From positions 15,004,001 to 15,068,000 of the forward strand of contig CM059449.1 of NCBI GenBank assembly GCA_030390025.1: a stretch of 64,000 nucleotides of DNA. The letters run 5' to 3'. Source of the DNA: Squalus acanthias. Taxonomy: Eukaryota. The notes under the pieces were generated by a model. It had not been told where the DNA came from and did no database searches. It saw only the letters and a program-made list of their open reading frames with translations. Positions 383 through 59,604 of this stretch are shown piece after piece. Within the stretch, counting starts at the first letter, position 1. Each line of letters starts with the position of its first letter. Both the position numbers and the translations under genes were made by a program.

Positions 383-1990
383 CTGTAGGAATCAAAAGTA
401 ACAATAAAAGTAACAATTTGAATATAAACATCACTAAAAAGAACCAAGATTATCTGGCCATTATCACATTGTTGTTTGTGGGATCTTGCAGTGCGCAAAT
501 TGGCTACCGCGTTTCCTGCATCACAACAGTGACTACACTTCAAAAAAGCACTTCATTGACTGTAAAGCGTTCTGAGGGCGTGAAAGGCGCTGTGTGAATG
601 CAAGACTTTCTTTACAACAACATCAAAGGCGAACCAAATGTCACTGGCGTTTGAATGCATGCATCTACTTTATGGTTATATTCGGAAGCGCAATATTGCT
701 CTTTCAAATAGTTACCTTTTGTCAGACCATAACCTGCGGAGAACAGGAGGAAAGCGACTAAAACTCCGGCAGCGGTGTACAACAAGCTGTTGCTTAGCGA
801 CGATTCGCTGGTTGGCTCTGTGGTCGGTTGTACTGGGAGCCGGCCGAGCTGAAGACAAAATAAGAGATTAGTTTCACCCAGAACATCACTTACTGACTCC
901 CGCTCTCCACTGCTGGTGAATGTACAGCGTGCCCCGACACCAGCCAATAGGTAATGCTATTTCAATGGGTGATGAGAACTACAGGTGCAGCGGTGCTGAT
1001 TTTTTCCATCTCCCCTCCATTTGCTAATTGGGCTTGTGATATTTGTTATTTATATTTTTGAATTTAACAGCTAATGCTTTTTTTCAAATTGATACAAAAT
1101 CAATTGTTATCGAAAATATATCGTGACAAAACACCTAACGATTATAATCTCGTCATTGAATTATCTGTTCTCAATATTCTATGGAAGAGGGGTTGGTTGT
1201 GTATGTACAGAGGGACCTGGGTGTCCTTGTACACCAGTCACTGAAAGCAAACATGCAGGTGCAGCAAGCAGTTAGGAAGGCAAATGGTATGTTGGCCTTC
1301 ATTGCAAGTGGATTTGAGTACATGAGCAAGGATGTCTTACTACAGTTATACAGGGCCCTGGTGAGACCACACCTGGAGTACTCTGTGCAGTTTTGATCTC
1401 CTTACCTAAGAAAGGATATACTTGCCACAGAGGGAGTGCAGTGAAGGTTCACCAGACTGATTCCTGGGATGGCAGGACTGTCGTATGAGCAGAGATTGGG
1501 TCGACTAGGCCTGTATTCAGTAGAGTTTAGAAGAATGAGAGGGGATCTCATTGAAACGTATACACTTCTGACAGGGCTAGACAGACTGGATGCAGGGAGG
1601 ATGTTTCCCCTTGCTGGGGGCTCTAGAACGAGGGGTCACAGTCTCAGGATACGGAGTAGGACATTTAGGACTGAGACGAGGAGAAATTTCTTCACTCAGA
1701 GGGTGGTGAACCTGTGGAATTCTTTACTACAGAAGGCTGTGGAGGCCAAGTCACTGAATATATTTAAGAAGTAGATAGATTTCTAGACACAAAAGGCATC
1801 TAGGGGTATGGGGAGAGAGCGGAAATATTGTATTGAGATAGAGGATCAGCCATGATCATATTGAATGGCGGAGCAGGCTCAAAGGGCCTAGTGTCCTACT
1901 CCTGCTCCTATTTTTCTATGTTTCTATGTGTCAGAGTGTATGCACATGTGTTCAGGTAGGCGTGTTAGAGAGACAGAGAGAGAGGTGGGA

Positions 1991-12375: not shown

Positions 12376-13032
12376 TAAACAAGCAACATTGCTCCCGATC
12401 CCGTCGATTTCCCGATGGGTGGGTTAGGGTAAAATTGCGGAGTATTATATGTGTCTAAGACAAGGAGGGTGTGTGACTTGCAGGAGAACTTGGAGGTGAT
12501 GGTGTTCCCATGCACCTACTGCCCTTCTAGGTGATGGAGGCCATGGGTTTGGGAGGTGCTGCTGAAGAAGCCTTGCCAGTGCATTCAGGAGATCGGACGC
12601 ACTGCAGCTGCCCTACGCCTGGGTGATGGAGGGGGTGAATGTTTAGGCAAGTGGATAAGGTGTCAATCAAGCAAACTTCTTTGTCCTGGGTGGTGTGGAG
12701 CTTCCTGAGTTTTACTGCAGCTGCATCCATCAGAGCAAGTGGAGAGTACACCAACACTCCTGAGTTGTTATTCTATTTAGATATCTTCTACTTCATTTCA
12801 GCTGCTGCCTGGATTGCGGTGGAATGCTCGACTTCCGCAGGGCACAAAAACGGGCGGTGGCTTATCGGCATTGATATGAAAAAGAAAATTAGGTGGGGTT
12901 TATTACAGGCTGCCGATCCGCCACTGCCCGTTTTCCGCTCCCAAAGGAAGTTGAGCTTTGACCCTGCTGTTCTTTTTCCAGGTGCTCTCTCCTATTTGTA
13001 ACTACAGTGTTGATTTATCCCAGTATAGGCTC

Positions 13033-15007
13033 CAGAAAAAGCAGCAAACCTGAGGATTGGGAGCAGTTTAGGATTCAGCAAACGAGGACAAAGGGATTAA
13101 TTAAGAGGGAGGAAATAGAATATGAGAGTAAGCTTTCAGGGAACATAAAAACTGACTGTAAAAGCTTCTATAGATATGTGAAGAGAAAAAGATGTGTGAA
13201 GTCAAGCATAGGACCCTTGCAGTCAGAATCAGGGGAATTTATAATGGGGAACAAAGAAATGGCTGACAAATTAAATACATACTTTGGTTATGCCTTCACA
13301 AAGGAGGACACAAATAAACTCCCAGAGATGTCGGGGAACATAGGGTCTAATGAGAGGGAGGAATTGAATGAAATCAGTATTTGTAGGAATATGGTGTTAG
13401 GGAAATTAACGGGATTGAAGGCCGATAAATCCCCAGGGCCTGATAATCTACATCCTAGGGTACTTAAGGAAGTGGCCCTAGAAATAGTAGATGCATTGCT
13501 GGTCATCTTTCAAAATTCTATAGACTCTGGAACAGTTCCAATGGATTGGAGGTTAGCTAATGTAACCCCACTATTTAAAAAAGGTGGTAGAGAAAAAACG
13601 GGTAATTTTCGACCGGTAAGCCTGACATCGGTAGTGGGCAAAATGCTAGAGTCCATTATAAAAGATGTTATAGCAGAGCACTTGGAAAACAGTGACAGGA
13701 TCGGACAAAGTCAACATGGATTTACAAAAGGTAAATCATGCCTGACTAATCTACCGGAATTTTTTGAGGATGTAACTGGTAGAATAGATAAGGGAGAACC
13801 AGTGGATGTGGTGTATTTGGACTTTCAGAAGGCTTTCGATAAGGTCCCGCATAAGAGATTAGCGTGCAAAGTTAAAGCACATCGGATTGGGGGTAAGGTA
13901 CTGATTTGGATAGAGAACTGGTTGGCAGACAGGAAGCAAAGAGTTGGAATAAATGGGTCTTTTTCCGAGTGGCAGGCAGTGACTAGTGGGGTACAGCAGG
14001 GATCAGTGCTAGGACCCCAGCTATTCACAATATATATTAATGATCTAGACGAGGGAACTAGATGTAATATCTCTAAATTTGCAGACGACACAAAGCTGGG
14101 TGGGCGTGTGTGCTGTGAGGAGGATGCAGAGAAACTCCAGTGTGATTTGGACAGGTTGGGTGATTGGGCAGGTGCATTGCAGATGCAGTATAATGTAGAT
14201 AAATGCGAGGTTATCCACTTTGGTGGCAAAAACAGGAAGACAGATTATTATCTGTACGGCAATAGATTGGGAAAAGGGGAAGTGCAACGAGATCTGGGAG
14301 TCCTTGTGCACCAGTCACTGAAGCTAAGCATGCAGGTGCAGCAGGCGGTTAAGAAAGCAAATGGTATGTTGGCCTTCATAGCGAGAGGATTCGAGTACAG
14401 GAGCAAGGATGTCTTGCTGCAGTTGTACATGGCCTTGGTGAGACCACACCTTGAGTATTGTGTGCAGTTTTGGTCGCCTTATCTGAGGAAGGATGTTCTT
14501 GCCATGGAGGGAGTGCAGCGAAGATTCACCAGACTGATACCTGGGATGGCAGGAATGACGTATGATGAGAGATTGGGTCGATTAGGCTTATATTCGCTAG
14601 AGTTTAGAAGAATGAGAGTGGATCTCATTGAAACTTATAAAATTCTAACAGGACTAGACAGACTAGATGCAGGAAGGATGTTCCCGATGGCGGGGGAGTC
14701 CAGAACCAGAGGTCACAGTCTAAGGATAAGGGGTAAGCCATTTAGGACTGAGATGAGGAGGAATTTCTTCACCCATAGAGTGGTGAACCTGTGAAATTCT
14801 CTACCACAGAATGCAGGTGAGGCCAATTCATTAAATATATTCAAGAAGGAGATATATTTATTTCTTAAGCCTAAAGGGATCAAGGGATATTGGGGGAAAG
14901 CAGGGACAGGGTACTGAATTTGGATGATTAGCCATGATCTCATTAAATGGCGGAGCAGGCTCGAGGGGCCGAATGGCCTACTCCAGCTCCTATCTTCTAT
15001 GCTTCTA
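13033..15007 (+). mobile_element. 5'-truncated CR1 LINE with a long open RT frame; copy-A-specific insertion
   Basis: ORF 13007-14794 contains KSPGPD, NFRPVSLTS, YLDFQKAFDKV, QGSVLGP and FADD. Copy B has the empty site ataggctc|tggtcgtcc at ~41188. Confidence 0.95.
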
Positions 15008-15529
15008 TGGTCGTCCTACCGCAGCATTACAGTCTCTTGGGTCAGATAACTCTTAAAAGTACACGTTGTTTAAAAAAAAGGTTGGGCTGGAATAAGTAGC
15101 AAAAAGCTGATCATGTAGATCCCGTCGAAAGCGCTCTGAAAGTGAAAAGCATGCTGTTGCATTTACACAACTGGGCTCAGCACCATTCCGTGACATGTGG
15201 CCAACACATGATCATATTTCAGACAATTGCCAGGCACTATTCATTTAAATCAAACCCGAGTACTATCGCCGGTTTTCATTTACAAACTCTGCGCCCTTTA
15301 ACTTCAGTCTAACATGTTTGTCATTTTTTAAACAGGTGCAAGATGAGTTTCAATCCCCCGGGTGCGTAAACACCCACTGAAATTAGTGAAGGATGAAACT
15401 GAACTGTGAGGCGTTATTCCTTTGTTTCAATGTACCGCTTGTGTAATGTTAAAGTAGTGCTTCTTTCTTAAATATTCTTAAAATATGACTTTTCCGACTA
15501 CAATTGGAAAACGTGCTGAGTGAACAGAA

Positions 15530-15580
15530 TTCCTCTGTGTGGTGTTAAACCACCAGAGGGGTTCGTCATATAAGTCAGCG
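15530..15580 (+). promoter_or_regulatory. Candidate P1 proximal promoter (RUNX-like TGTGGT, TATA-like TATAAG)
   Basis: Motifs lie ~100-135 nt upstream of the ATG; TATAAG is also present in copy B. Motif match only. Confidence 0.35.
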
Positions 15581-15671
15581 TCTGTTGTGGGATGTTTGTT
15601 ACACTTAATAACACTTTGGGACGCTGCAGGTCAGATGTTAGCTCGTAGTGTCCTGCGGAGCAAGAATCAAA

Positions 15672-18600
15672 ATGCAAACTATTCACATGTGGCTGTTCTT
15701 GAATTTACTGACAATACTTTTGTATATCGGTGAGCCGCTGTCTTCTGATGTTCACATTTTAATTTTTTTAAATTTGCTTCTGGGATCTGGGCGTCACTGG
15801 CAAGGCCAGCATTTATTGCTCAGCCCTAGTTGCCCTTGAGAAGGTAGTTGTGAGCCGCCTTCTTGAACCGCTGCAGTCCGTGTAGTGAAGGTACTCCCAC
15901 AGTGGGCTGTTGGGTAGGGGGTTCCAGGATTTTGACCCAGCGACGATGAAGCATCGGCGATATACTTCCAAGCCAGGATGGTGTGTGACTTGGAGGGGAA
16001 CTTGGAGGTGGTGGTGTTCCCATGTGCCTGCAGCCCTTTTCCTTCTTGGTGGAAGATGTCGTGGGTTTGGGAGGTGCTGCCGAAGAAGCCTTGGAGAGTT
16101 GCTGCAGTGCATCTTGTAGATAGTACACACTGCAGCCATGGTACGCTGGTGGTGGAGGGAATGAATGTTTAAGGTGGTGGATGGGGTGCCAATCAAGCGG
16201 GCTGCTTTGTCCTGGATGGTGTCGAGCTATTTGAGTGTTGTTGAAGCTCCACTCATCCAGGCAAGTGGAAAGTATTCCATCACACTCCTTACTTGTGCCT
16301 TGTAGATGTTGGAAATTCTATATTTATTAAGGCATACGATTATTTGGTTGGGCAGGTTGTTTCCTTATGCAGAACTAATATATAACGAAGTTACAGTGTG
16401 TAAAAAAATGTTTTATTTTATTATGCTGTGTTACTTTGCGTTGAATCCACCATTTCAACGGTATAAGCATTTTATCTTTCGGGGAGCTTTATATATATAT
16501 TATACACATTAACGTTCTCCTCCATGCAGATGCTGTGAATTTGCATTATAAAATTAACATAATTAATAGGGCCTACTAAAATCTACTTGTGGAAATAAAT
16601 GAATTCACGGGCTCCTAACCGACTGTGTTACACATGGAATTATCTGACATATTATACCTTCTACTCGACAATTCAACGTCTTTGCGTTCGACACAATTTA
16701 TTCCATTAGCAAAAAGTTGATATTCAACACGTTTCCAAAAGTTCCCATACTTACACTTGACATAATAGAAAGGACAGATTTCCTTCTTAAATGATTAAAG
16801 ATGACAGAAGTGAAATCTGTCCCAAGTAGGATGGTGAAATAGAAATGAGTTGGGAAGTGGTGATTATATAATGTTAATACAGTTTTACAAAGAAAACAAA
16901 CTGCGTGAAAACACAACAGATCCGCCTTTATAAAGTGACAATTGCCTATAATTTTTGCACTATAAAGGTTCTGAATATATACAGCTGTTCAATCTGATTA
17001 TGGACTGCAATTTCCCAAAGTTGCGTTGAGAAACTGGAAAAGGACCCAATGTAATGACAGCTGAATACCGGTTTGTAGCTCAATGATTGATGGATCAATC
17101 AGCATTTTAAATTCTTCATAATAGCTTGTAAATTGTGGGACACATGAGATCATTATGTTAAAAAAAAACCGTAGCTGTTTGACAGATCAATGCTTCTTTC
17201 TCCAGAAACACACATGTTGTATCTTGAATCTATTTGTACTGCCCACTCCCACGGCCGTCTCCAGTAACTTGTTCCACAAATCTCTTACTCTATAGGCGAA
17301 CAGTTTCTGCCTGACTTCCCTTCTTGCAGCTAACCAGTTACCGTCTGAAGTGTGACCCTTGGAAATTAGATCCTTCCCCACAGTGACCGATCTATCTGGG
17401 CTCAATTCATAATAATTGTACAACGTTAATTGACAGGTTGCGGTATTTCATGGACGGATACATTGATCCTAATTTATTCTAACAATAAAGGACACCCAGT
17501 AACATCAATTAGTGATAGTGGAAGATACTTTAATTTGAGCTTCGCCCCTCGTGGCAGATGAAATTTAACGCAGGAAAGTGCGAGGTGTTACATTGAGGGA
17601 GGAAGGACGAGGAGAGGCAAAATAAACTAAAAGGTCCGATCCTAAAGTGGGTGCCTGAACAGAGAGACTTGGGGGTATATGTGCACAAATAGTTGAAGGT
17701 TGAGAAACTGGTTAACAAAGCATATGGGATCCTGGGGTTTATAAATAGAGGCATAGAATACAAAATCAAGTTAGTTATGATAAACTTTTATAAAACACTG
17801 GTTCGGCCTCAAATGGAGTATTGTGTCAAATTCTGGGCACCGCATTTTAGGAAGGATGTGAAGGCCTTAGAGAGGGTGCAGAAAAGATTTACAAGAATTG
17901 TTCCAGGGATGAGGAACTTCAGTTATGTGAATAGACTGGAGAATCCGGGGTTATTATCCTTAGAGCAGAGAAGATTGACAGGAGTTTTGATAGAGGTGTT
18001 CAAAATCATGAGGGGTCTGGACAGAGTCATTGGCGGAAGGTTCCAGAACAGAGGACACAGATTTAAGGTGACTGGCAAAAGAACCAAAGGCGACGCAGTG
18101 AGTGGTTAGGACCTGGAATGCACTGCCTGAAAGAATGGCGGAGGCAGACTCAATCGTAGTTTTCAAAAGGGAATTGGATAAGTACCTTAAGGAAAAAAAA
18201 ATGCAGGGTTAAGCGGAAAGGGCGGGGGAGTGGGACGAGCGGAAGTGCACTTGCAGAGAGCCGGCACTGTCTCGACGGGCCGGGATGGCCTCCTTCTGTG
18301 CTCTAACGATTCTATGATTCTATGCTGGTCTGTAATTCTGTAGGTCACTATTGACAGATTGCATTGTTCCATTTATACTCTAGACAATGGGTTGATGAGT
18401 GAGCTCAGAGTGTTCCAGTCCCCAGATGCCATTAATGTAACAGAAGGAGGATCGGTGCAGCTGAACTGCACTTTTGACGCGAATGGTCCTGTTGGACATA
18501 TTGTTTGGATGCGGGCCTCACAAAACATGGAAGTGTCGGTTCGGAATCCTTTCTATCAGAGCTGGATAACGAAGTCAGGGACGAAATTATTTACCGAAAG

Positions 18601-21600
18601 AATGGTTTTCCTTGAAATCATCAATTTACTGACAATGGACTCAGATTTTTACTCCTGCGAGGTGGATATTGTGGAGTTTGGGAAAGCAGGCGGGACAGGA
18701 ACAAAACTTATAATAACTGACAGTGAGTAGAAAAGATGAGAGTTCGTTTGAAGAATTTACCAATAATTTGGCATTGGTATGGCTGTACATGTGCTATGCA
18801 AAGAGATTTCAGTTCGGTTGCTGAATTGTGTCCGTGCGTCAAGATCACTTTCAAAGTACATCGGGAACAATTGGTCGACAATTAATATCCTGAAAGTGCC
18901 ATATACCTGACTTGAATCTGACTATTCAAGGCGCGGTGCTTTAGGAATAGGAATACACGAGCTTCAGGCTACTCCCCCACCCCACCACCCCACAACCACC
19001 TGAAGGTGAGTGTTATCTCAAAATAATACTTGGCATTATCGCTTGATTTTCTTGCTTGGCACCTTACATATCTCTGTTAGGGCAGCTATGTTCCTCCTTT
19101 TTTACAAAGCTAATGAGTTCGACCTTTTCTGTTTTTTTGTTTTTCTCATAACCTAGCACTAGAACACGAGGGAACAGGCTAGCGTTCACTCCACCTCCGG
19201 GACTTACATGTCTCCCATGAGCCTGAGTGACCAGAAATAAACACAATACTCAAGATGCCATCTGATCAGAGTACTGTACGGTTGGATCCCCACACCATAT
19301 AAAAGGAAACATGCCTTCTATATGTTTTATTCCTTTCTGGGATGTGGACGTCGCCCAGCATTTATTGCCCATCCCTAATTGCCCTTGAGAAGGTGGTGGT
19401 GAGCCGCCTTCTTGAACCGCTGCAGTCCGTGCGCTGAAGGTACTCCCACAATGCTGTCAGGGAACGAGTTCCAGGATTTTGATCTAGCGGCGATGAAAGA
19501 ACGGCCGATATATTTCCAAGTCAGGATGGTGTGTGACTTGGAGGGCGACTTGGAGGTGGTGGTGTTCCCATGCGCCTGCTGCCATTTTCCTTCTAGGTGG
19601 TAGAGGTCGCGGGTTTGGGAGGTGCTGCCGAAGAAGCCTTGGCAAGTTTAATGAAATAGGCTTTAGTTAGAATTTACTGTTTTCGATATAAGCCTTTATT
19701 TTAAACAGGTTAGCGTCTTGGTTAAAATGAAGGGCATGTGGAACGCTAGTATTGCAACAAATAATTATAGTTTTTTTCACTTTCCACGGGGATGCAGTAC
19801 CTTAGATTACATATACAAATAGGAAACGGCTTTTCTTTAACGGATAGAAAGCCACTGGAATGATATTTGAGTTTTCATAACCTATAACCTATATCCAAAT
19901 TTAATTATTAAATTGCGAACTAGTGACCTTCGTTATGTCTATTTCCGATTTACATTGATGGGGGGTGAAATCGGACATGGGTGGATCGCGGATCACATTG
20001 GATCGCCTGTTATACACTCCGCCCAGTATTAGGTCCAATTGCCTTAATATAAAACTGAATATTGGGCGCACCAAACCGAAATACTGCGGATGCTGGAAAT
20101 CTGAAATAAGAAACAGAAAATGCTGGAAATACTCAGCAGGTCGGGCAGTATCTGTGGAGAGAGAAACAGAGTTAACTTTTCAGGTTTCTGACAGAAGGGC
20201 ATCGACCCGAAACGTAAACTCTGTTTCTCTCTCTCCCTGCAGATGCTGCCTGACCTGCTGAGTGTTTCCAGCATTTTCTGCTTTTTATATTGAATATTGG
20301 GCGTGTTGTACAGCAGTCGGCCAATATGATTCTGTCTGCCTTGCGTGCCTGTCCATGTCAAATTTCACCCCTATAACAACACAAAAGCAAAATAATGCGG
20401 AAGCTGGAAATCTGAATTAAAAACAGAAAATGCTGGAAATACTCAGCAGGTCAGGCAGCATCTGTGGAGAGAGAAACAGAGTTAACGTTTTTGGTCGATG
20501 ACCCTTCGTCAGAACTGGAAAAAGTTGGAGATGGAACAGGTTTTTAAGCAAGTGCAGGGGCAGGGAAAGGGGGGAAGGGAGGAAAGAACAAAGGGGAAGG
20601 TCTGTGACAGGATGGAAGGCAGGAGAGATTAAGAGACAAAAGGGATGATGGTGCAAGGCAAAGGGAGATGGTAATGGGACAAGTTAAGAAACAAAAGATG
20701 ACTCTAGATGAAGTGTAAATGGCAATGGCAGAATGATCGACCACCTCACCATTTTCTTGCATTATCTTTCACTTTAACCAAGCACCACCATACTGACTAT
20801 ATTATTGGCCCAAAAATTCGTGAGGAAGCCTTCGTGCGAGGGTAAGGCCTCCCCGCGATCTCTCACTCCGCGTTGGCTTTTTCAGTTCCAGCTCGCACGA
20901 ACTTGATGTTCTGGACAGCAGCTGTGCTGGGCTTGCGTATCCCACCGGCGTAGTTAATTCGTGCGAGCTGTGGGATCACGTGACTCAGTTAGAGCCAATG
21001 GCAGCACAATATCTTCCATTCATAACTTTCACATAAGTGCTGTGAAAGTTATGAATACTATAGCTCCCCAAAAGAACCGCTAAACCTCAATTAAATTAAA
21101 AAAAGAACCATCACATTAATAAAATAAGTATAGTTAAATAAATTAACCATTTTAAATAAAAAATTAAATTTTTGAAAATTTTAAAATCTTTTAAAAAGTT
21201 ATAAAAATAAACTTACCTGTCTTTAAAGTCTCTAAAAAATTTCAAAATAATACTTAATTCACTACTTACCTTGTTAAAAGTGGGTCTTACTCCTTTTTTT
21301 CTGTGTAGAATCTTCCGTACTTACCTGCGCGTTGAAACCACTAAGTGCACAGCGTGCGCGCAGCCTGTAGCGCGCACGCGGTTCACCTAGGACCCGCCCC
21401 CTTTTCCATTCACCAAGTGCCGGTTTTCAGCGCATGCGCAGTGCATGCAGAAAACCGGCAATTGGAGACAGAATACGCGAGAGTACGCAGTGCGTACTCT
21501 CGCGTAGCGGGACTAATTTTTGGGCCATTGTTTCTGTTTCTAACAGGAGCTAGATTCGAGCCGATCTGCCATTTCCCCACGCTCAGCGTTGGATTACAAA

Positions 21601-21668
21601 TTACAAAAACGGTGCTGCTGATCATTCTCATAATCACAGGGCTGACGACGTACCTCTGTCCAACGTAG
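15672..21668 (+). CDS. Gene P1: NKp30/NCR3-like V(J) receptor with stalk Cys, TM Lys and no signalling tail (activating type). Exons 15672-15729, 18384-18722, 21547-21668
   Basis: Leader MQTIHMWLFLNLLTILLYI G|gtgagc. V exon tctag|ACAAT...GGTGTKLIITD A|gtgagt. Last exon taacag|: RARFEPICHFPTLSVGLQITKTVLLIILIITGLTTYLCPT*. All junctions phase 1 and open. Confidence 0.85.
17545..18325 (+). mobile_element. CR1 3' fragment just upstream of the P1 V exon (shared with 43710-44530)
   Basis: ORF 17693-18109 with CR1 motifs and tail. Confidence 0.88.
18384..18722 (+). CDS. Gene P1 Ig V(J) exon
   Basis: Within ORF 18359-18730: ELRVFQSP...VQLNC...IVW...DSDFYSCEV...GTGTKLII. Confidence 0.92.
20069..20291. 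mobile_element. Fold-back Penelope-derived insertion with 13-bp flanking direct repeats (tgaatattgggcg), shared with copy B (~46284-46510)
   Basis: Inverted arms aaaatgctggaaatactcagcagg.../...cctgctgagtgtttccagcatttt. Confidence 0.7.
20807..21526. mobile_element. MITE, PIF/Harbinger-like (12-bp TIR GGCCCAAAAATT, 3-bp TSD ATT), copy A only
   Basis: att|ggcccaaaaatt...aatttttgggcc|att; copy B has the empty site at ~46988. Confidence 0.8.
21547..21668 (+). CDS. Gene P1 stalk/TM/terminal exon
   Basis: Strong acceptor tttctgtttctaacag. Cys in the stalk, Lys in the hydrophobic segment, stop TAG ending at 21668. Confidence 0.82.
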
Positions 21669-23249
21669 GGAAAAATAGACTTTGATTTATAACAAGATAC
21701 ATCTGCAAACGTTGTTGGAAAAGATGTCCAAAGTCGATGTAAATTTTATCAGGAAGTTCTTTAAGATGCCCGTGTTCGATATCTTTTTGTTACAGCATTG
21801 CATGGATGTGGATTAAAGCATGGGCGAGGATAGATATAGTTCTTATTCCAGAATATTTCAATTAAAGTTACTGCACCGTCAACTTAATAACTAGCAGCTG
21901 CCATTCTGTTTGAGAGACGTGTTTATTTTTAAAAAAATGACAAATCCATAGATTTTTCTAACTGTCATGGTCGGGATAAAATGTCTAGTTTGTGCAAGAT
22001 CTTTCTCGATACTTGCTTGCAATGCCTTTAACTGAATGCTGCACACGATCTATTCAAAATGGATGGATGCTTACGATGTGCTTTTTTATTGGCCCCTTTA
22101 TGCGAGACTTTCTAATATAATGTGACGTATCTGCACCCTGTATGAAAGGGCTCTTGGAATTTTTTCCCCGATTAAAGCGAACGCTTTCTTTCTCGTGTTT
22201 AATCGAAATTGGTCTTTACTTGCTGGGATCAGTAGAAGTCCCATCCTCAGCTTGTCAGCAACAACTTTTATGCACCCCAGTGCGTCCTGTAGGGGATTAT
22301 AGGACTAGGCGTCATAGTTTAAAAATTAGAGTCAGACCTTTCGGGAGTGAAATTAGAAAACACTTCTATACACAAAGGGTGGTAAAAGCTTGGAACTCTC
22401 TTCCACAAACGGCAATTGATGACAGATCAATTGTTAATTTTAAATCCGAGATTGATAGATTTCTGTTAACTAAAGGTACTAAGGGATATTGGATCAAATG
22501 TTGGGAAAAGCGAGAGTGGCCGGAGAGAGAGAGAAAAGAGAGAGAGCGGGAAAAAGTGAGGCCGTGATTGGAGAATCAGCGAGTACCAGGGGAGGTTGTG
22601 TGTGAAACACAACAGCACGTGACAAGAAGGGGAGGAGCCTGGAAAAGGCCGCAGTGCCCCGGGAAAGACCGGCTTTAGAAAATTAGAGTGTTGCAAATTC
22701 ATCAGCCGAGGTTTGGGGAAGGAGTTGGGGTGGGGGGCACTCGGGAAAATCCCCCATTAGCCAGTCGACCTCTGAGGGGATGCTTGCGGGCCGGATGAAA
22801 CTGGTGGACAGGAGAATGTGGGACTATAAATATACAGGAATACCACCAACAGCAATTTCCAGGCCGAAAGTGACCGTAATGTACCTGATGGCACTGCTTC
22901 TGATCTGTGATGTGCAGCTACATCTGGAGTCAGGTTGAGCAGCTAATAGTATCCCATTCATTAAGTTATTCACATATACAGATAGGCACAACCACGATGG
23001 GCCGAACGCCCTCCCTCTGTGCTATATCATTGAATAAGCAGAACTAATGGAATGATGGACGTGTTGATGTCCAGGTGTCCAACTCAGTTCCTGGCAGGCG
23101 TTGTGCAGGACAGGGGCAATGAGAGCATGTGCAGCCTTTGGAATAAAAAGTTGAAATCCGCTCTCATTTCCTTGGCCCAGGGCTGAAACCAGTCACAGAT
23201 GAAAAACGGCTCTTTCTACTGGCTTTGAGGGTCCCCTGAAAAATGCTGA

Positions 23250-23885
23250 ACATAATAAGAAATAGGAGCCGGAGTAGGACATTTGGTCCTTCGAACCAGA
23301 TCTGCCATTCAATAAGATTATGGCTGATCTTCCACCTCATCTCCACTTTCCTGCACTATCCGCATATCCCTTGATTCCCTTAATATTCAAAAATCTATCG
23401 AACTCTGTCTTGAATATACTCAACGATTGAGCCTCCACGGCCCTCTGGGGTAGAGAATTCCAAAGATTCACCACCCTCTGAGTGAAGAAATTTCTCCTCA
23501 TCTCAGTCCTAAATGGCCGACCCCTTATTCTGAGACTCTTACCCCTGGTTTTAGACTCCCCCGCCAGGGGAAACATCCTCCCTGCATCTAACTGGTCAAT
23601 TCCTGTAAGAATTTTGTATGTTTCAATGAGATCACCTCTCATTCTTCTCAACTCGAGAGAATATCGGTTCAGCCTACTAAATCTGTCCTCATAGGACAAT
23701 CCCCCCATCCCCGGAACCAGTCTGGTGAACCTTCGTTGCACTCCCTCTATGGCAAGTATATCCTTCCTTAGGGAAGGAGACCAAAACTGTACACAATACT
23801 CCAGGTGTGGTTTCACCACGGCCCTATATAATTGCAGTCAGACATCTTTACCCTTATACTCAAATCCTCATGTAATAAAGGCCTA
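23250..23885 (-). mobile_element. CR1 3' fragment (almost entirely absent from copy B)
   Basis: ORF 23337-23819. Confidence 0.9.
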
Positions 23886-26725
23886 CAGTCTATTCCCAGT
23901 TACTAGCGGATGTGGTTCCACAGCACAAATCTTCAGCATTTATTGTCACATAAGTGGAAATCTCAACCAATCGGTAAAACCCTTACTACTGGGGTAGAAG
24001 TTTGCGGTTCAAGGGCCACTCCAGGAGTTGCGCACGTCAACTTCGCGAATGTCCACTGCAACACTGAGGGAGTCTGGGAGTTAAGCCTGGGAGGATCAAA
24101 AGGGAACGTTTGGCTGGGAAATTGGCACTGCAGTAACGCTGGATTCTCCTTTTATCAAAATCCATGACGTGCCCCGGCAATGCTGAACGCCTAGACAGTG
24201 AAGAGAAAAAATCTACCCGCATCCGTCGGAAAGTAGTTTGGTGTGCCAAGCTTTGAGACGTCCTGCCAACTAATCATTTCTCGAGGAGGTGGTTCTGCCG
24301 GTCTCCTGCCGTGACATCTCTGGAAGTTCAGCAGAACCCCGCTTTACCTATTACGCGCTTCTCTGAGTTCCGCCGATCTTCCGCCGACGTTACCGCAGGA
24401 GAGCGGGAGAACCCCGCAGAAGTTATTCCCCCCCTTGAGTTTAACAAAAAGCATTCATTTTAATAAAAGGTATAACGGAAAATCAACAGAACAACCTGAC
24501 ATGGGTCAACTGAGAAGAACTTTTATTGCGAAAATATCAAATACTATATCGGATTATGATGAAATGTAAGGAGTTATGTGATGAAACTAGGCTGAGTGAA
24601 CAGTAACGAGTATGAACGCTCAACATGTTGGTTTTCATTTTAACAGCGGCATGAACCAGTTTATTTTCTAGGATAGCACGCCCCTTAAAATAGGGGACTA
24701 ATACATGTCATACAAATGTGATAAATGTTCACAACTAACACAAAGAGTCTGATGTTAAAGCATTGGAGATTCCAAGCCCTTGTTGCTGAATTATGTGTGG
24801 ATAAACCTCACTCACTAAGTTAGAGGACAAAACATTCGCCTGGAAATTCCCATGGAGGGTTCTCTGATCATCCGCCGTTGAAGATCCCACAGAACGCCCG
24901 AGCTTCCGCCCAAGTTACGGCGGGAGAATGGGACAACTCTGCGGAAATTCCACCAGTTCTCCATCGCGGGTGGGGGCAGGTGCTTCTCATCATTGGGGTG
25001 AAATGTCTCGGCTCCTCTTACTTCACCGAAGCGTACAGCACCCCTTCTCGCTTTACACGGCGCTCAGTTTGATTGCTGTCCTGAATATTCAGCGTGGCGT
25101 ATTGCAACTTGTCATCCCCCTCTCTCTATTGAGATGAAAGTGTTTCAGTGTTGAATAAAGTATTGTAAACTGAATATAGCGTAGGGCCTCAAACCCAGCG
25201 CACCAGATGTTGCGCAGTTTCAATGGAATATAATTCAACCCAGTAAACATTCTACATATAATTAGCATATGACTCCACCTGTCAGATATTGTTTCGTTAA
25301 ATAGGATAGATCGCGCCGTCCTAAATATTCCTGTCCTTTTGAATATATTTCAGCTAGTCAACGATTGCACGATTTAAGTAACAAGCAAGGGAAACCGTCG
25401 ACCTAATTAACACATCATTATCACTTTAAAATCCATGCATTTAGAAAAATTCACACTTAATGAATTGAGGAGCAGTGGGTCAGTCAGCATCTGGGAAAGA
25501 CAGATTAACATTTGGGAATAACTGTTCAGTAGCACATTCCGTTGAAGGCAACGTGCCAACCCACGGTTACCCTCTGTTTTCTCTTCCAGGTGCTGCCTGA
25601 CCTACTTTGCATATCCAGCATTTTCTGTTACGGCTTCAGATTTCCTCCTTATCTCGACTTTGTCAAAGTAGGTGTATTTTTGCGTGTGCATGCCTGGGTC
25701 CCCCTATTTTGGGGTCCATTTTAATGTTCCTGGGTGTATCTCGTGCTTTTTGTATTCGTTATTGGGATGTGGGCGTCGCTGGCAAGGCCAGAATTTATTG
25801 CCCATCCACAGCAGCCTTTGAGAAGGTGGTGGTGAGCCGCCTTCTTGAACCGTTGCAGTCAAGATATTCCCACATTGTTTTTCAAAGCGGCTTTTTACAA
25901 CTTAGTGGCTATTTTGGAGGAGAGTTGAGAGTCAACCACATTGCTGTGGGTCTGCAGTCACATATGGGCCAGACCAGGTAAGGACGGCAGATTTCCTTCC
26001 CTAAGGGGCATCAGTGAACAAGGTGGGTTTTTACGACAATCTGATAGTTTCATGTCACCATTACTGATACTAGCATTTTAGTCCAGATTTATTTAATTAA
26101 ATTTAAATTTCCCAGTTGCTGTGGCGGGGTTTGAACTGACGTCGCACGGATCATTAGCCCAGCTCTGATGGATTACTAGTCCAGTAACATAAGCAGTATG
26201 CTACCGTTCCCTATATATGCTTGTGCATGCACCTGCTTATTTGTGTGTGGCTATATGTATTTGCGAGTGTCTGTGAGAGTTTGTCTTTCTGTGTGTGCAG
26301 GTGTTTGAATTCTGGAACTGTTAGGTTTCATTTCATGTCTTTCCTGGTTGGCTTTCTGTTGAACTATAACGAATATTTTAGTCCCGCCTCTCTTCAATTT
26401 CGATTTTCAACTTGCCGCGCCTGTGCGTAAAACTGGCGTTTGGGATGGGCCGCACCTGTGCTTTACGCCTGTGTGGCAAGTTGAGAATCTACCCCACATC
26501 TTCAAGAAGAAAAGTTGAGGCCTTCCAACCTCGTTCCATCTTTAGATTTTTACATCCAACTGAGAGAACTTTTTACATGATAATCTACCGGGAAAAGTAA
26601 ACAAGAGGTCAGGGTTTAAAAATAACAAAAATAGCCCAAGTCGTTGTGGTACATACCCGATTTGTTCTTCTGCACTCAGAGCTGTCATTATTCCTGTCTA
26701 TAAAGCATAGAAAAAAGAAAGAAGA

Positions 26726-27185
26726 AAGACTTGCATTTATATAGCGCCTTTCACCACCTCAGGACGTCCCTAAGCGCTTCACAGCCAATCAAGTACTTTT
26801 TGAAATGTTGTCGCCGTTGTAATGTAGGAAACGCCGCAGCCAATTTGCGCACAGCAAGCTCCCACAATCAACAATCTGACAATGGCCAAATAAACTGTTT
26901 CAGTGATGTTGATTGAGGGACAAACATTGGTCGGGACACCGGGGAGAGCTCCCCTGCTCTTCTTCAAAATAGTGCCAAGTGATATTTTACGTTTAGCTGA
27001 GAGAGCAGACGGAGCCTCGGTCTATTCTCACATCTAAAAGACGGTATCTCTGACAGTGCAACGCTCCCTCAGTACTGCACTGGGAGTGTCAGCCTAGGTT
27101 TTTGTGCTCAAGTCTCTGGAGTGGGAACTTGAAACCCACAGCTTTCAATGTTTCAGAGGCGAGGGTGTTACCAACTGAGCCACGG
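26726..27185 (-). mobile_element. DeuSINE-like tRNA SINE; other copies 39282-39718 (-), 54588-55044 (-), fragments ~440-612 and ~63850-63985 (+)
   Basis: tRNA-like head, Deu-like core (gatgagacgttaaaccgagg in the 39 kb copy) and tail aaggcgctatataaatgcaag. Confidence 0.7.
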
Positions 27186-28393
27186 GAAATGACACTGCCT
27201 AATTTAATTTACTTGAACAGTGTATACAGTACAATACAACATATTGTGCCTTAGATATAGCGCTGTAATACACTGTGGTATAATGCTATAGGATACAACA
27301 TAACATAGTATAAAACAGGAGAACGCAATAAAATAAAGTATACAGTAGGATGTACCGTATTGCACAACAATAAACCGATAAAATTAGTATGGTCCAATAT
27401 ATAATACGCTACCACGCAATATAAAACAGCATAAGGTTCTTCTGTGCGATATAAACGGTGTTCATGTCAGATTCCTACACCCACTATTTTAACTGTTTAC
27501 TTTAAACTAATGCAAAAAGCAATTTGACATGAGTGCGCCAAGCACTTGTACGAGAATAGGGTGATGTCCAGGCTAATCTACTATAATATATGATATATAA
27601 TACAGCATGACATTGAAACGTACTATTAAATATCATGGAATAATTTATCACAAAAAAATCAGCGTGTGGTAAGAAAATATTATAAAATATTGTATTATCC
27701 ATAGACCTTAACACTTCCAATTGACTTTGTGGCCAATATGTGTAACATGTGTCACTCAATAGCGGTTCTGGAAACAAGAGTTATTAAATCATAGACTCAA
27801 ACAGCACAGAAGGAGGCCATTCGGCCCAACCTGCCTGTGCCGGCTCTCTGAAAGAGCAATAATTAGTCCCACGACCCCCTGCTCTTTCCCCATAGCCCTG
27901 AAACAGTTCCCTTGTTAAGCATTTATCCAATTCCCTTTGAAAGGTATTATTGACTCTGTTTCCACCATCCTTTCAGGCAGCGCATTCCAGATCACAACAA
28001 CTCACTGAGTAAATAAAAATTCTCCTAATTTCCCCCTCGCATTTTTTCCCCAGTATCTTAAATCTGTGTCCTCTGGTTGTCGACAGAATAATCAGACAGA
28101 ACAATACTGAACTCATGGTCAACGGATTATACCTGATAGATAAGAAAATTAACCAAATTATCAATTAAAATCAAATTAAATCGAAGGAGTAAGCGTTCGG
28201 AGTTTATTAAAAGTGACAGGTTGCTCACGTTTCTTTCTGTCACCCACCTGTTTCATGGATCACTGAGTAGAGCGGATCTGGACTGAAGCAAAAGAGGACA
28301 TCAGAAAATGTAGGCATCCAAAACAATAAAATACATTAAAGAACAAGAAAGTGGCTTTCTTTAAATAAAAAGTAGATCAATGTAAACAGTTAC

Positions 28394-41853: not shown

Positions 41854-44800
41854 ATGCAAACTATTCACATGTGGATGTTCTTGAATTGACGGACCATACT
41901 TTTGCATGTCGGTGAGCCGCTGTCTTCTGATGTACACATTTTAATGTTTTTTCGGGTTTTTTAAATTCGCTTATGGGTTCTGTGCGTCGCTGGCAAGGCC
42001 AGCATTTATTGCCCATCCATAATTGCCCTTAAGAAGGTGGTGGTGAGCCGCCTTCTTGAACCGCTGCAGTCCTTGTGGTGAAGGTACTCCCACAGTGCTG
42101 TTAGGGAGGGAGTTCCAGCTTTTTGATCCAGCGACGATGAAGGATGGTGTGTGACTTGGAGGGGAACTTCGAGGTGCTGGTGTTCCCATGCGCCTGCTGC
42201 CCTTGTCCTTCTCGGTGGAAGAAGTCGCGGGGTTGGGAGGTGCTGCCAAAGAAGCCTTGGCGAGTTGATGCAGTGCATCTTGTAGATGGTACACACTGCA
42301 GCCACGGTACGCCGGAGGTGGAGGGAGTGAATGTTTAAGATGGTGGATGGGGTGCCAATCAAGTGGGCTGCCTTGTCCTGGATGGTGTTCGAGCTTCTTG
42401 ATTGTTGTTGGAGCTGCACTCATCCAGGCAAGTGAAGAGTATTCCATCACACTCCTTACTTGTGCCTTGTAGATGGTGGAAATTCTATATTTATTAAGGC
42501 GTACGATTATTTGGTTGGGCAGGTTGTTTCCTTATGCAGAACTAATATATAACGAAGTTACATTGTTAAAGATAAATTGTTTTATTTTATTATGCTGTGT
42601 TACTTTGCGTTGAATCCACCATTTCAACGGTATAAGCATTTTATCTTTCGGGGAACTTTATATATATATTATACACATTAGCGTTCTCCTCCATGCAGAT
42701 GCTGTAAATTGCATTATACAATTAACATAATTAATAGGGCCTACTAAAATGTACTGATGGAAATAAATTAACTCACGGACTCCTAACCGACTGTGTTACA
42801 CATGGAATTATCTGACATGTTATACCTTCTACTCGACAATTCGACGTCTTTGCGTTCTACACAATTTATTCCTTTAGCAAAAAGTTGAGATACAACACAT
42901 TTCCAAAAGTTCCCATACTTACAATTGACATAATAGAAAGGACAGATTTCCTTCTTAAATGATTAAAGATGACAGAAGTGAAATCTTCCCCCAGTAGGAG
43001 GGTGAAATAGAACTGCGTTGGGAAGTGGTGATTATATTATGTCAATCATTTTGCAAAGAAAACCAAGTGCGTGAAAATACAACAGATCCCCCTTTATAAA
43101 GTGACAATTGCCTCTAAGTTTTGCACCATAAAGTTCTGAATATATACAGCTGTTCAATCTGATTATGGACTGCAATTTCCCAAAGTTCCGTTGAGAAACT
43201 GGAAAAGGACCCAATGTAATGACAGCTGAATACCGGTTTGTAGCTCAATGATTGATGGATCAATCAGCATTTTAATTTCTTCATAACAGCTTGTAAATTG
43301 TGGGACACAAGAGATCATTATGTCCAAAAAAAACCTGTCCCTGTTTGACAGATCAATGCTTCTTTCTCCAGAAACACACATGTTGTCGCTTGAATCTATT
43401 TGTACTGCCCACTCCCACGGCCGTCTCCAGTAACTTGTTCCACAAATCCCTTCTTCTATAGGCGAACAGTTTCCGCCTGACTTCCCTTCTTACAGCTAAC
43501 TAGTTAACGTCTAAAGTGTGACCCTTGGAAATTAGATCCTTCCCCGCAGTGAGCGATCTATCTGGGCTCAATTCATAATAATTGTACAACGCTAACTGAG
43601 AGGTTGCGGTATTTCATGTACGGATACATTGATCCAAATTTATTCTGACAAAAAAGGACACCCAGTAACATCAATTAGTGATGGTGAAAAATACTTTAAT
43701 TTGAGCTTCGCCCCTCGTGGCAGATGACATTTAACGCAGGAAAGTGCGAAGTGATACATTTTGGTCGGAGGAACGAGGAGAGGCAAAATAAACTGAAGGT
43801 TACGATCCTAATGTGGGTGCCTGAACAGTGAGACCTGGGGGTATATGTGCACAAATCATTGAAGGTGGCAGGGCAGGTTGACAAAGCGGTTAACAAAGCA
43901 TACAGGATACTGGGCTTCATAAATAGAGGCATAGAGTACGAAAGCAAGGGAGTTACGATGAACCTTTATAAAACACTGGTTCGGCCTCAACTGCAGTATT
44001 GTGCCAATTCTGGGCACCGCACTTTAGGAATGAAGTGAAGGCCTCAGAAAGGGTGAAGAAAAGATTTACGAGAATGGTTCGGGGATGAGGAACTTCAGTT
44101 ACGTGGATAGACGGGAGAAGTCGGCGTTCTTCTCTTTAGAGCAGAGAAGGTTGAGAAGAGATCTGATAGAGGTGTTCAAAATCATGAAGGGTCTCGACAG
44201 AGTAGATAGAAACTGTTCCCATTGGCGGAAGGGTTGAGAACTAGAAGACACAGATTTTAGGCGATTGGCAAAAGAACCAAAGGCGAAATGAGAAAAACCT
44301 TTTTACTCAGCGAGTGATTAGGATCTGGAATGCACTGCCTGAAAGTGTGGTGGAGGCAGATTCAATCGTGGCTTTCAAAAAGGAGTTAGATAAGTACCTG
44401 AAGGAAAAAAAATGCAGAGCTACGGGGAAAGGGCGGGGGAGTGGGACTAGCTAAAGTGCTCTTGCGTAGAGCCGGCACGGGCTCAACGGGCCGAATGGGC
44501 TCCTTCTGTGCTGTAACCATTCTATGATTCTCTGCTGGTCTGTAAATCTGTAGGTCACTATTGACAGATTGCATTGTTCCATTTATACTCTAGACAATGG
44601 GTTGATGAGTGAGATCAGAGTGTTCCAGTCCCCAGATACCATTAATGTAACAGAAGGAGGATCGGTGCAGTTGAACTGCACTTTCGAAGCGAATGGTTCT
44701 GTTGGACAAGATGTTTGGAGGCAGGCCTCACAAAGCATGGAAGTGTCGGTTCGGAATCCTTTCTATCAGAGCCGGATAACGAAAACAGGGACGAAATTAT

Positions 44801-47129
44801 TTACCGAAAGAATGGCTTTCCTTGAAATCATCAATTTAATGACAATGGACTCAGATTTTTAGTACTGCGAGGTGGAAATTGCGGCGGTTGGGAAAGCAAG
44901 CGGGACAGGAACACAACTTATAATAACTGACAGTGAGCAGAAAAGATCAGAGTTCGTTTTAAGAATTTATCAATATTTTGACATTGGTATGGCTGTACAT
45001 GTGCTATGCAAAGAGATTTCAGTTCTGTGTGCTGAATTGTGTCCGTGTGTCAGTATCACTTTCAAAGTACATCGAGCACATTTGGTCGACAATTAATATC
45101 CTGAAAGTGCCATATATCTGACTTGAATCTGACTATTCAAGGCGCGGTGCTTTAGGAATAGGAATACACGAGCTTCAGGCTACTTCCCCACCCCCACCAC
45201 CCCACCACCTGAAGGGGAGGGTTATCTCAAAATAGAACTTCGCATTATCCCTTGAGTTTCTTGCTTGGCACCTTACATATCTCTGTTAAGGCAGCTATGT
45301 TCGTCCCTTTTTACAAAGCTAACGAGTCCGAACTCTTCTAGTCTTTATTCTCTCTCATAACCTCGCACTGGAACTCGAGGGAACAGGCTAGCGTTCACTC
45401 CACCTCCGGGACTTGCATGTCTCCCTTGAGCCTGAGTGACCAGAAATAAGCACAATACTCAAGATGCTATATGACCAGAGCACTGTACGGTTGGATCCCG
45501 CACCATATAAAAGGAAACATGCCTTCTATATTTTTTATTCGTTCATGGGATGTGGAATTCGCTGGCAAGGCCAGCATTTATTGCCCATCCCTAATTGCAC
45601 TTGAGAAGGTGGTGGTGAGCCACCTTCTTGAACCGCTGCAGTCCGTGTGGTGAAGGCACTCCCACAGTGCTGTTAGGGCGGGAGTTCCAAGATTTTGACC
45701 CAGCGACGATGAAGGATCGGCGATATACTTCTAAATCAAGATGGTGTGTGACTTGGAGGGGAACTTGGAGGTGATGGTGTTCCCATGCGCCTGCTGCCCT
45801 TGTCCTTCCAGGCGGTAGAGGTCGCGAGTTTGGGAGCTGCTGCTGGAGAAGCCTTGGCGAGTTTAATGAAATAGGCTTCAGGTAGAATTTACTGTTTTCG
45901 ATATAAGCCTTTATTTTAAACAGGTTAGCGTCTTGGTTAAAATGAAGGGTATGTGGAACGACAGTATTGCAAAAAATAATTATAGTTTTTTTCAGTTTCC
46001 ACGGGGATGCATTACCTTAGATTACATATAAAAATAGGAAACGGCCTTTCTGTAAGGTATAGAACGCCGCTGGAATGTTATTTCAGTTTTCATGTCCTAT
46101 AACTGAGCAATCCAAATTAAATTATTAAATTGCGAACTAGTGGTCTTCGTTATGTGGATTTCTGATTTCAATTGATGGGCGGTGGTGGGGGGCGTGGGGG
46201 GGGGGTGGGCGGGGTGATCGCCTGTTATACACTCCGCCCAGTAATGCGTCCAATTGCCTTAAAATAAAACTGAATATTGGGCGCACCAAAGCCAAATGCT
46301 GCGGATGCTGGAAATCTGAAATAAGAAAGAGAAAATGCTGGAAAATACTCAGCAGTTCAGGCAGCATCAGTGGTGAGTGAGAAACAGAGATAACTTTTCA
46401 GGTTTCGGAAAGAAGGGCAACGACCCGAAACTTAAACTCTGTTTCTCTATCTCTGCCTGCAGATGATGCCTGACCTGCTGAGTGTTTCCAGCATTTTCTG
46501 CTTTTTATATTGAATATTGGGCGTGTTGTACAGCGGTCGGCCAATATGATTCTGTCTGCCTTGCGAGCCTGTCCATGTCCAATTTCACCCCTATAACAAC
46601 ACAAAAACAGAAAATGTTGGAAATACTCAGCAGGTCAGGCAGCATCCGTGGAGAGAGAAACAGATTTAACGTTTCAGGTAGATGACCCTTCGTCAGAACT
46701 GGAAAAAGTTGGAGATGGAACAGGTTATTAAGCAAGTGTAGGGCCAGGGAAAGCGGGGAGGGGAGGAAAGAACAAAAGGGAAGGTCTGTGATAGGATGGA
46801 AGGCAGGAGAGATTAAGAGACACAAGGGATGATGGTGCAAGGCAAAAGGAGATTTTAATGGGACAAGTTAAGAAACAAAGGATGACTCTAGATGAAGTGT
46901 AAATGGCAATGGCTGAATGATCGACCACCCCACCATTTTTTTGCATTATCTTTCACTTCAACCAAGCGCCACCATACTGACTATATCATTGTTTCTGTTT
47001 CTAACAGGAGCTAGAGTCGAGCCTATCTGCAATTTCCCCACTCTCAGCGCTGGATTACAAGTTACAAAAACGGAGCTGCTGATCATTCTCATAATCACAG
47101 GCCTGACGACGTACCTCTGTCCCACGTAG
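41854..47129 (+). pseudogene. Gene P2: pseudogene paralogue of P1 (exons 41854-41911, 44594-44932, 47008-47129)
   Basis: TGA at 41887-41889 in the leader (TTA in P1). TAG at 44860-44862 replaces the Tyr of the Y-x-C motif. V to E change in the TM. Confidence 0.88.
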
Positions 47130-59034: not shown

Positions 59035-59604
59035 CTGAAAGTGGGTAAAACAGACCATTTATAAATTTACAGGGCACCTCTTTGCTTTAAAGCACGCCGT
59101 GGAAGGGCTGGTTTGAAGCAAATATTTGTTCGGAGGATTTTTGATAAGGTATTCCTGATCTTTAACTTGAGGGAATAAAAACTGAAAGCACTGGCTACAC
59201 TCAGCAGGCCAGGCAGCATCTGTGGAAAGAGAACCAGAGTTAACCTTTCAGCTCCATGACATTTCGTCAGAACTGAAAGGTTGGAGATGTACCAGGTTTT
59301 AAGCAATTGCAGAGGCAGGGAAAAGGAGGAAGGGGAGGAAAGAAGAAAAGGGAGGGTCTGTGATAGAGTGGAGGCAGGAGAGATTAAATGACAAAAGGGA
59401 TGATGGTGCAAGACAAAAAGAAATGGTAATAGGACAAGTAAAGAAACAAAAGATGGGTGCATAAGGGGTGTGAATGGTTAACTTGAGGGATATTGGTGCT
59501 GGAGCTGGAGCGCCTTTGGTTTTTGGGATCACTCCATGTCAAGTATAGAATGGATCTGGTACAAAGTACCTCTGACCCGTTCCAAATAATAAGCATTCAC
59601 TTTA

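What the first reader, a model, noticed from the sequence alone, without database searches (positions are those of the whole stretch)
21547..21668. P1 membrane module is Cys-stalk/Lys-TM rather than the Arg-TM of NKp30
Seen: ICHFPTLSVGLQITKTVLLIILIITGLTTYLCPT*. Known: a TM Lys pairs with acidic TM residues of DAP12 or CD3 dimers, and TCR chains also combine a connecting-peptide Cys, a TM Lys and a minimal tail. Inference: P1 is a disulphide-linked dimer with a non-rearranging VJ domain on a TCR-like or DAP12-coupled anchor, relevant to models of the ancestral antigen receptor.
Basis: partly seen in the sequence, partly recalled or inferred. Interest (0 to 1): 0.7.

Follow-up and report, generated by a model that had tools for sequence, protein, structure and literature searches.

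The report
Shark NKp30 copy with swapped anchor
This is the last exon of one gene in a large shark cluster of NKp30-like immune receptors; a recent exon swap likely gave it a short, tail-less anchor with a lysine where sister genes have arginine, so it is likely an activating partner of an inhibitory-type receptor and not a relic of the ancestral T-cell receptor.

Summary
21547-21668 is a phase-1 last exon (stalk Cys, Lys, stop) that reads in frame after a leader exon and a single VJ exon whose best sequence and fold matches are NKp30. The genome holds 10 full and 6 truncated copies; 3 of 10 lie in intact genes. The exon shows an excess of silent changes.

The Lys aligns with the Arg of sister NCR3 anchors and is followed by 16-19 apolar residues, like Arg anchors (15-19 in 8 of 9), not like a SIRP-beta Lys control (12). 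Stalk Cys with a basic residue and a short tail also occurs in bichir NCR3-like proteins. The same V subfamily carries a different anchor exon, with a tyrosine-motif tail, in horn shark, zebra shark and at least one of two such genes here. The Lys-exon genes nest inside them, so the anchor is derived, not ancestral.

Best reading: a young, adaptor-coupled activating member of a paired receptor set, more likely on FcR-gamma/CD3-zeta than DAP12. A GPI anchor or decay remain open. Splicing, dimerisation and adaptor binding are not shown.

The parts
15672..15729 (+). Leader exon of P1 (19 codons + 1 nt, split leader)
   Evidence: matches the leader of horn shark NCR3-like XP_067865589.1 (P0009) and zebra shark P0033
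18384..18722 (+). Single VJ-type Ig exon, NKp30-like; two N-glycosylation sequons; Trp replaces a nearly invariant Arg at residue 60
   Evidence: a 340-nt contig of run X2 (another organism, RNA status a guess) covers exactly 18384-18722 with 39 differences
20806..21525 (.). 720-bp repeat with terminal inverted repeats, inserted 22 nt before the acceptor in P1 only; it displaces a branch-point-like TACTGAC that the other copies keep
21547..21668 (+). Last coding exon: stalk with Cys (residue 8 counting the split codon), Lys (residue 21), hydrophobic run, Cys-Pro-Thr, stop
21669..21870 (+). Putative 3' UTR with ATTAAA at 21812 and 21861
   Evidence: inferred, no RNA
41854..47129 (+). Pseudogene copy in the window: stop in leader (41854-), stop in V (44594-), last exon at 47008 with Glu two residues after the Lys

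Best explanation
P1 is an intact-looking NKp30 (NCR3) family gene whose last exon encodes a short stalk with one Cys, a hydrophobic helix with a Lys near its outer end and no signalling tail; it likely arose recently by joining a V exon from a tyrosine-tailed gene to this anchor exon, and it likely works as the activating half of a receptor pair by recruiting an ITAM adaptor, probably FcR-gamma or CD3-zeta, through the Lys. Shown: exon structure, family, copy number and state, Lys in the Arg register, nesting of these V exons among genes with the other anchor, and presence of zeta/gamma-type anchor exons in the genome. Inferred: splicing, membrane insertion, adaptor choice, Cys-linked dimer, shared ligand with the tailed genes.
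For: NKp30 is the top 4 of 22 PDB sequence hits and the top 4 fold hits. 67 of 69 V-exon hits lie on one contig, which also carries 16 of 50 MHC class I exon hits, 15-23 Mb away. Of 16 loci of this V subfamily, 10 carry the Lys exon, 2 carry a different anchor exon and 4 show neither within the fetched 8.5 kb. That different exon is the one used by horn shark P0001 (51-55% identity; there with a TM Arg) and, by eye, zebra shark P0033, both with Tyr-motif tails. A tail-exon homologue follows L016. In the tree the Lys-exon and no-anchor V domains form one clade (97/93) inside the other-anchor genes. The Lys aligns to Arg in L038, L040, L045 and to Lys in L037. Apolar run after the basic residue: P1 19 (16 to the last Leu); 8 of 9 Arg anchors 15-19 (one 24); L037 17; lizard SIRP-beta2 Lys control 12. 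Published rule: zeta/gamma partners have the basic residue in the upper third, DAP12 partners at position 7-12 (PMC1440944, passages; PMC13107469, passages). Two zeta/gamma-family exons with TM Cys and Asp exist in the genome.
Against: In human receptors FcR-gamma prefers Arg: R3K in Fc-alpha-RI greatly reduced assembly and gave none with DAP12 (PMC1440944), so a Lys in this register may couple poorly. Kyte-Doolittle windows put the Lys at 7-9, inside the DAP12 range. No basic residue follows the helix, so its inner end is not fixed. Homology to the Arg exons is only marginal: local-shuffle p 0.014-0.08, 16 tests, and not significant in DNA. 7 of 10 full copies are pseudogenes. P1 has Trp at a nearly invariant V-domain Arg and a repeat inserted at its acceptor. 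The tail motifs of the partner genes are only partly ITIM-like (consensus recalled), and no tail exon was found behind L017 in 20 kb.
Confidence: 0.45

Rival explanations
1. The exon is a GPI-attachment signal. P1 would be cleaved near Ser14 and become a lipid-anchored, non-signalling decoy, with the Lys lying in the spacer.
For: The order small residues (S-V-G or S-A-G), polar spacer, 18-residue hydrophobic end and no basic tail fits the rule in PMC2064130 (passages). Stop codons in TM exons repeatedly created GPI-linked CEACAMs (PMC2832619, passages). The 11 sister anchor exons compared end in a donor with G at -1; P1 stops instead.
Against: The Lys sits where sister anchors have their basic residue. 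A bichir NCR3-like protein has Cys, Arg and a 4-residue tail (P0141). The Glu variant that would favour a polar spacer occurs only in pseudogenes (5 of 5). The stretch before the putative site is rather hydrophobic. No GPI predictor was available.
Confidence: 0.2
2. The helix starts earlier (Leu13-Ser14), the Lys is central, and P1 couples to DAP12 or DAP10.
For: Kyte-Doolittle windows place the Lys at 7-9. Type I DAP12 partners use Lys at 7-12. Nine uncharged residues precede the Lys.
Against: The approximate insertion-energy scale places it at 3-6, and 16-19 apolar residues follow, against 12 in the SIRP-beta2 control. Gln and Thr lie just before it.
Confidence: 0.17
3. P1 is a decaying by-product of birth-and-death duplication and makes little or no working receptor.
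For: 7 of 10 full copies are broken and 6 more are deletion fragments. V-exon replacement/silent ratio is 0.97. P1 has the longest K-type branch (0.15), an Arg-to-Trp change and a repeat at the acceptor.
Against: Leader, V and last exon and their splice sites are intact in P1, L012 and L013. The last exon shows a silent-change excess. A ratio near 1 in a ligand-binding domain also fits mixed selection.
Confidence: 0.14
4. P1 keeps an ancient TCR-like module (connecting-peptide Cys, CD3-binding Lys) and models the pre-RAG antigen receptor.
For: The VJ exon, Cys, Lys and short tail are present. One TCR chain has a similarly long run after its Lys (recalled, not tested). L037 is a second Cys+Lys anchor.
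Against: No C1 domain. The anchor is attached to a young V clade. No TCR hit for either Lys exon in the PDB or in the genome. The current precursor candidates are UrIg/UrIg2, described as closer to Ig/TCR than NCR3 (PMC12227049, passages).
Confidence: 0.04

Closest known systems
NKp30 / NCR3 (human; shark NCR3 family, e.g. nurse shark QTT61901.1 and QTT61898.1; horn shark XP_067865593.1)
   Same: Single non-rearranged VJ exon, split leader, best sequence and fold match, one basic residue in the upper part of the anchor, MHC class I genes on the same contig.
   Different: Lys instead of Arg, a stop right after the helix, no tail exon. The horn shark relative has another anchor exon with Arg and a long Tyr-motif tail.
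Bichir NCR3-like XP_039594836.1 (P0141)
   Same: VJ domain, stalk Cys 10 and 15 residues before the basic residue (P1: 13), 19-residue apolar run, tiny tail without basic residues.
   Different: Arg, not Lys; distant V domain.
Paired receptors (KIR, LILR, Siglec, CEACAM)
   Same: Near-identical ligand domains on different anchors, made by duplication and recombination, with many pseudogenes (PMC2832619, PMC1440944, passages).
   Different: A different gene family; pairing of P1 with L016/L017 is inferred from sequence only.
DAP12-coupled V-type receptors (NKp44, TREM2, SIRP-beta)
   Same: V domain and TM Lys.
   Different: Their Lys is central (12 residues follow in P0134); P1's is followed by 16-19.
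TCR chains
   Same: VJ domain, membrane-proximal Cys, Lys, short tail.
   Different: No C1 domain, no rearrangement, no sequence match of the anchor, young origin.

Membership tests
NCR3/NKp30 | V domain closest to NKp30 | tested here: met
   Top 4 of 22 PDB sequence hits; top 4 fold hits; nearest named relatives are annotated NCR3-like
NCR3/NKp30 | V and J in one exon, no recombination signals | tested here: met
   G-x-G-T J motif inside 18384-18722; no nonamer in 15500-22000; heptamers only in the intron at 15898 and 17379
NCR3/NKp30 | MHC linkage | tested here: inconclusive
   16 of 50 class I exon hits on the same contig, 15-23 Mb away; the strongest hits are on other small contigs; class II search uninformative
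NCR3/NKp30 | TM Arg (mammalian form) | tested here: not met
   Lys in the same register. The family is variable here: 5 of 16 sister anchors have a clear basic residue (6 with L032), the rest none, and the two nurse shark NCR3 fetched are uncharged, so this is not taken as defining for sharks
NCR3/NKp30 | Binds B7-H6 | not testable with these tools
   No assay
FcR-gamma/zeta-coupled receptors | Basic residue in upper third of the helix | tested here: inconclusive
   Position 3-6 by approximate insertion energy, 7-9 by Kyte-Doolittle; aligned with Arg of sisters
FcR-gamma/zeta-coupled receptors | The residue is Arg | tested here: not met
   Lys; rule from human receptors
DAP12-coupled receptors | Central Lys at helix position 7-12 | tested here: inconclusive
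   the run after the Lys is longer than in the control
TCR chains | C1 constant domain and rearranging V-J | tested here: not met
   No C1 exon was noticed between V and last exon (Ig searches found none; no dedicated C1 scan); V and J are joined in the germ line
TCR chains | Anchor homologous to TCR connecting peptide/TM | tested here: inconclusive
   No hit, but the query is 39 aa and no TCR anchor was fetched for a direct alignment
GPI-anchored proteins | Small-residue site, spacer, terminal hydrophobic run, no tail | tested here: inconclusive
   Fits by eye against the rule; no predictor run

The most novel reading that the evidence does not exclude
Shark NKp30 genes form a KIR-like paired-receptor system that swaps anchor exons under one V subfamily. 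P1's tail-less Lys anchor either shows that shark zeta/gamma adaptors lack the mammalian Arg preference (two separate subfamilies here use Lys in the Arg register) or makes it a GPI-linked NKp30 decoy.
Probability: 0.3. Interest if true: 0.55.

Novelty: new variant of a known kind. Interest (0 to 1): 0.33.

Why it matters
NKp30 is a single Arg-anchored activating receptor in humans. A cluster with Arg, Lys, uncharged and tailed anchors, and a datable anchor swap, gives comparative immunologists natural test cases for how adaptor specificity and paired receptors evolved in the oldest vertebrates with adaptive immunity. It does not advance models of the ancestral antigen receptor, because this anchor-V combination is young.

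Tried and rejected
RNA: no run on record as RNA holds the stretch. Contigs of 4 runs from other organisms gave no cover of the last exon at 80% likeness; this is no evidence either way. Complex prediction of the P1 anchor with two FcR-gamma-like anchors gave no answer (0.02). DAP12/DAP10 were not located: PF07213 gave one sub-threshold hit that does not look like an adaptor, and the ITAM and MHC class II searches rang nowhere; absence is not shown. Word-indexed protein searches with the V frame and the last exon (7 candidates, none scored) found nothing, which is weak evidence. None of the short proteins (up to 720 aa) from the profile and homologue searches carried this exon; best anchor scores were 39. 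The three most relevant papers (Kinlein 2021, Flajnik 2012, Ohta and Flajnik 2015) and Memmer 2016 are not held, so Lys anchors in shark NCR3 may already be in print. Searches listed no paper describing them. Rejected: the K-T-E variant as support for GPI (pseudogenes only); truncated copies as a separate stalk exon (they are deletions that rejoin at 21977, 6 of 6); an alternative anchor or tail exon downstream (0 hits from 21 sister or homologue queries in 18723-28500). The ESM Atlas gave only generic V-set clusters. Earlier scan notes: none.

Full report
Setting. The window is G000 contig C26 15,004,001-15,068,000 in a 3.7-Gb genome. Its closest named protein relatives are from sharks and rays. 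A search with the P1 V exon scored 150 of 164 candidates and found 69 matches, 67 of them on C26 between 13.47 and 17.14 Mb. 16 of 50 MHC class I exon hits lie on the same contig at 30.7-38.4 Mb.

Gene anatomy. Leader exon 15672-15729, VJ exon 18384-18722 and last exon 21547-21668 join in phase 1 to a predicted 172-residue precursor (length by arithmetic). The leader matches horn shark P0009. The V domain is V-set, with NKp30 as the top 4 of 22 PDB sequence hits and the top 4 fold hits for a model of mean pLDDT 85. A 340-nt contig from another organism covers exactly the V exon, which supports its borders but not the joint. The last exon is the only hydrophobic phase-1 candidate on + up to 28500. 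A possible donor overlapping the stop lacks the G at -1 that all 11 compared sister anchor exons have.

Copies. Protein and DNA searches find the exon 16 times, all in this cluster: 10 full and 6 truncated (the seventeenth DNA hit is a 3' flank match on C2). The truncated copies are deletions from about exon base 55 to 21977 (6 of 6). Of the 10 full copies, P1, L012 and L013 have intact leader, V and splice sites. Five have a stop in the leader, and all five carry Glu two residues after the Lys. Two have a V frameshift and a mutated leader donor. The exon shows 8 silent to 6 replacement changes (ratio 0.28, naive p 0.017), while V over 7 indel-free copies gives 0.97. So the exon has been under coding constraint, but the copies are too alike for the unchanged Cys and Lys to count as evidence.

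Where the Lys sits. I fetched 20 loci around the other V hits and compared 16 anchor exons, 14 from those loci plus L016 and L017 (L033 and L035 resemble L031 and L034 and were left out). L038, L040, L045 and L050 have Arg, L037 has Lys, L032 has an Arg where its sisters have Gly, and the rest are uncharged. Five have a stalk Cys. In 4 of 5 printed alignments P1's Lys pairs with that basic residue; the fifth (L016) has none. Best scores were L038/L040 (shuffle p 0.003; hydropathy-preserving shuffle p 0.014-0.029; DNA p 0.12-0.14), so homology is suggestive only. After the basic residue P1 has 19 apolar residues to its end (16 to the last Leu). Eight of nine Arg anchors have 15-19 and one has 24; L037 has 17; the lizard SIRP-beta2 Lys control has 12, and the rat SIRP-like control has its Lys at helix position 9-13. 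An approximate insertion-energy scale (values recalled) places P1's Lys at position 3-6, Kyte-Doolittle at 7-9. Human rules: DAP12 partners have Lys at 7-12, FcR-gamma partners Arg near the top, and Arg to Lys weakens gamma assembly without gaining DAP12 (PMC1440944, passages). NKp30 uses zeta/gamma through an Arg in the top half (PMC13107469, passages; PMC6514059, passages). P1 therefore has the DAP12 side chain in, most likely, the zeta/gamma position. The genome has two zeta/gamma-family anchor exons.

Age. Sixteen loci share this V subfamily. Two, L016 and L017, carry a different anchor exon, which is the one in horn shark P0001 (51-55% identity) and, by eye, zebra shark P0033; both proteins have Tyr-motif tails. 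A tail-exon homologue lies behind L016; none was found behind L017. P1's V exon is 89.6% and 89.3% identical in DNA to these two, and similarity ends about 150 bases into the intron. In a 20-row tree (three frameshifted copies left out; midpoint root, with three distant subfamilies on the other side) the 7 Lys-exon V domains and 4 no-anchor V domains form a 97/93 clade next to L016 (89/87), among the other-anchor genes (no formal one-clade test). The simplest reading is a recent exon swap followed by tandem amplification. The age of the anchor exon itself is unknown.

Cys and tail. A Cys 13 residues before the basic residue is matched by bichir P0049 (13), P0141 (10, 15), horn shark P0001 (17) and L037 (16). 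P0141 also ends four residues after its helix. The V domain has only the two canonical Cys, so Cys8 is free for a dimer; this is inference.

Rivals. A GPI signal fits by eye (rule: PMC2064130, passages), with precedent in CEACAM TM exons cut by stop codons (PMC2832619, passages). DAP12 coupling needs the longer helix. Decay is suggested by the pseudogene load, Trp at a nearly invariant Arg and a repeat that displaced the branch-point-like motif. The ancestral-TCR reading has no positive test; the present precursor candidates are UrIg genes (PMC12227049, passages; PMC10751288, passages). PMC10450919 and PMC12272517 were opened for references and short passages only. No supplements were read. 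That nurse shark has eight divergent, MHC-linked NCR3 subtypes is recalled from Kinlein 2021, which I could not open; one search shows eight NCR3 accessions.

Verdict. A real exon of an NKp30-family gene and a modest variant: a Lys in the Arg register, no tail, a derived anchor. Interest 0.33.

Noticed in passing
L037 (G000:C26:13,505,783-13,505,893, -): A second, single-copy NCR3 subfamily with stalk Cys and TM Lys followed by 17 apolar residues and a splice donor; a cleaner Lys-anchor test case than P1.
   Followed up: partly
window 30434-31327 (-), L038, L043, L047: Tandem VJ exons ahead of one anchor exon (four in L043): multi-domain receptors or alternative V exons.
   Followed up: no
L011, L015, L020, L021: P1-type leader and V exon with no anchor exon found, followed about 4 kb later by a V exon of another subfamily; possibly V-V chimeras or soluble forms.
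   Followed up: partly
L032:2441-: An Arg appears in the anchor where sister genes L031/L033 have Gly: a possible independent gain of a basic residue.
   Followed up: no
window 20806-21525: 720-bp element with terminal inverted repeats, present at 79-94% identity at several other fetched loci.
   Followed up: partly
P0001 (horn shark XP_067865593.1): Combines a TM Arg with an ITIM-like tail, a dual-signal layout; the counterparts here (L016, L017) lack that Arg.
   Followed up: no
window 3181-3594 and 715-832 (-): Another NCR3-like gene with an uncharged anchor exon.
   Followed up: no
L050:1574-: Arg-anchor exon that seems frameshifted near its end relative to L045.
   Followed up: no
window 12962-14791, 59593-61068: Long reverse-transcriptase-like open frames of retroelements (recognised by eye, not scanned).
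   Followed up: no
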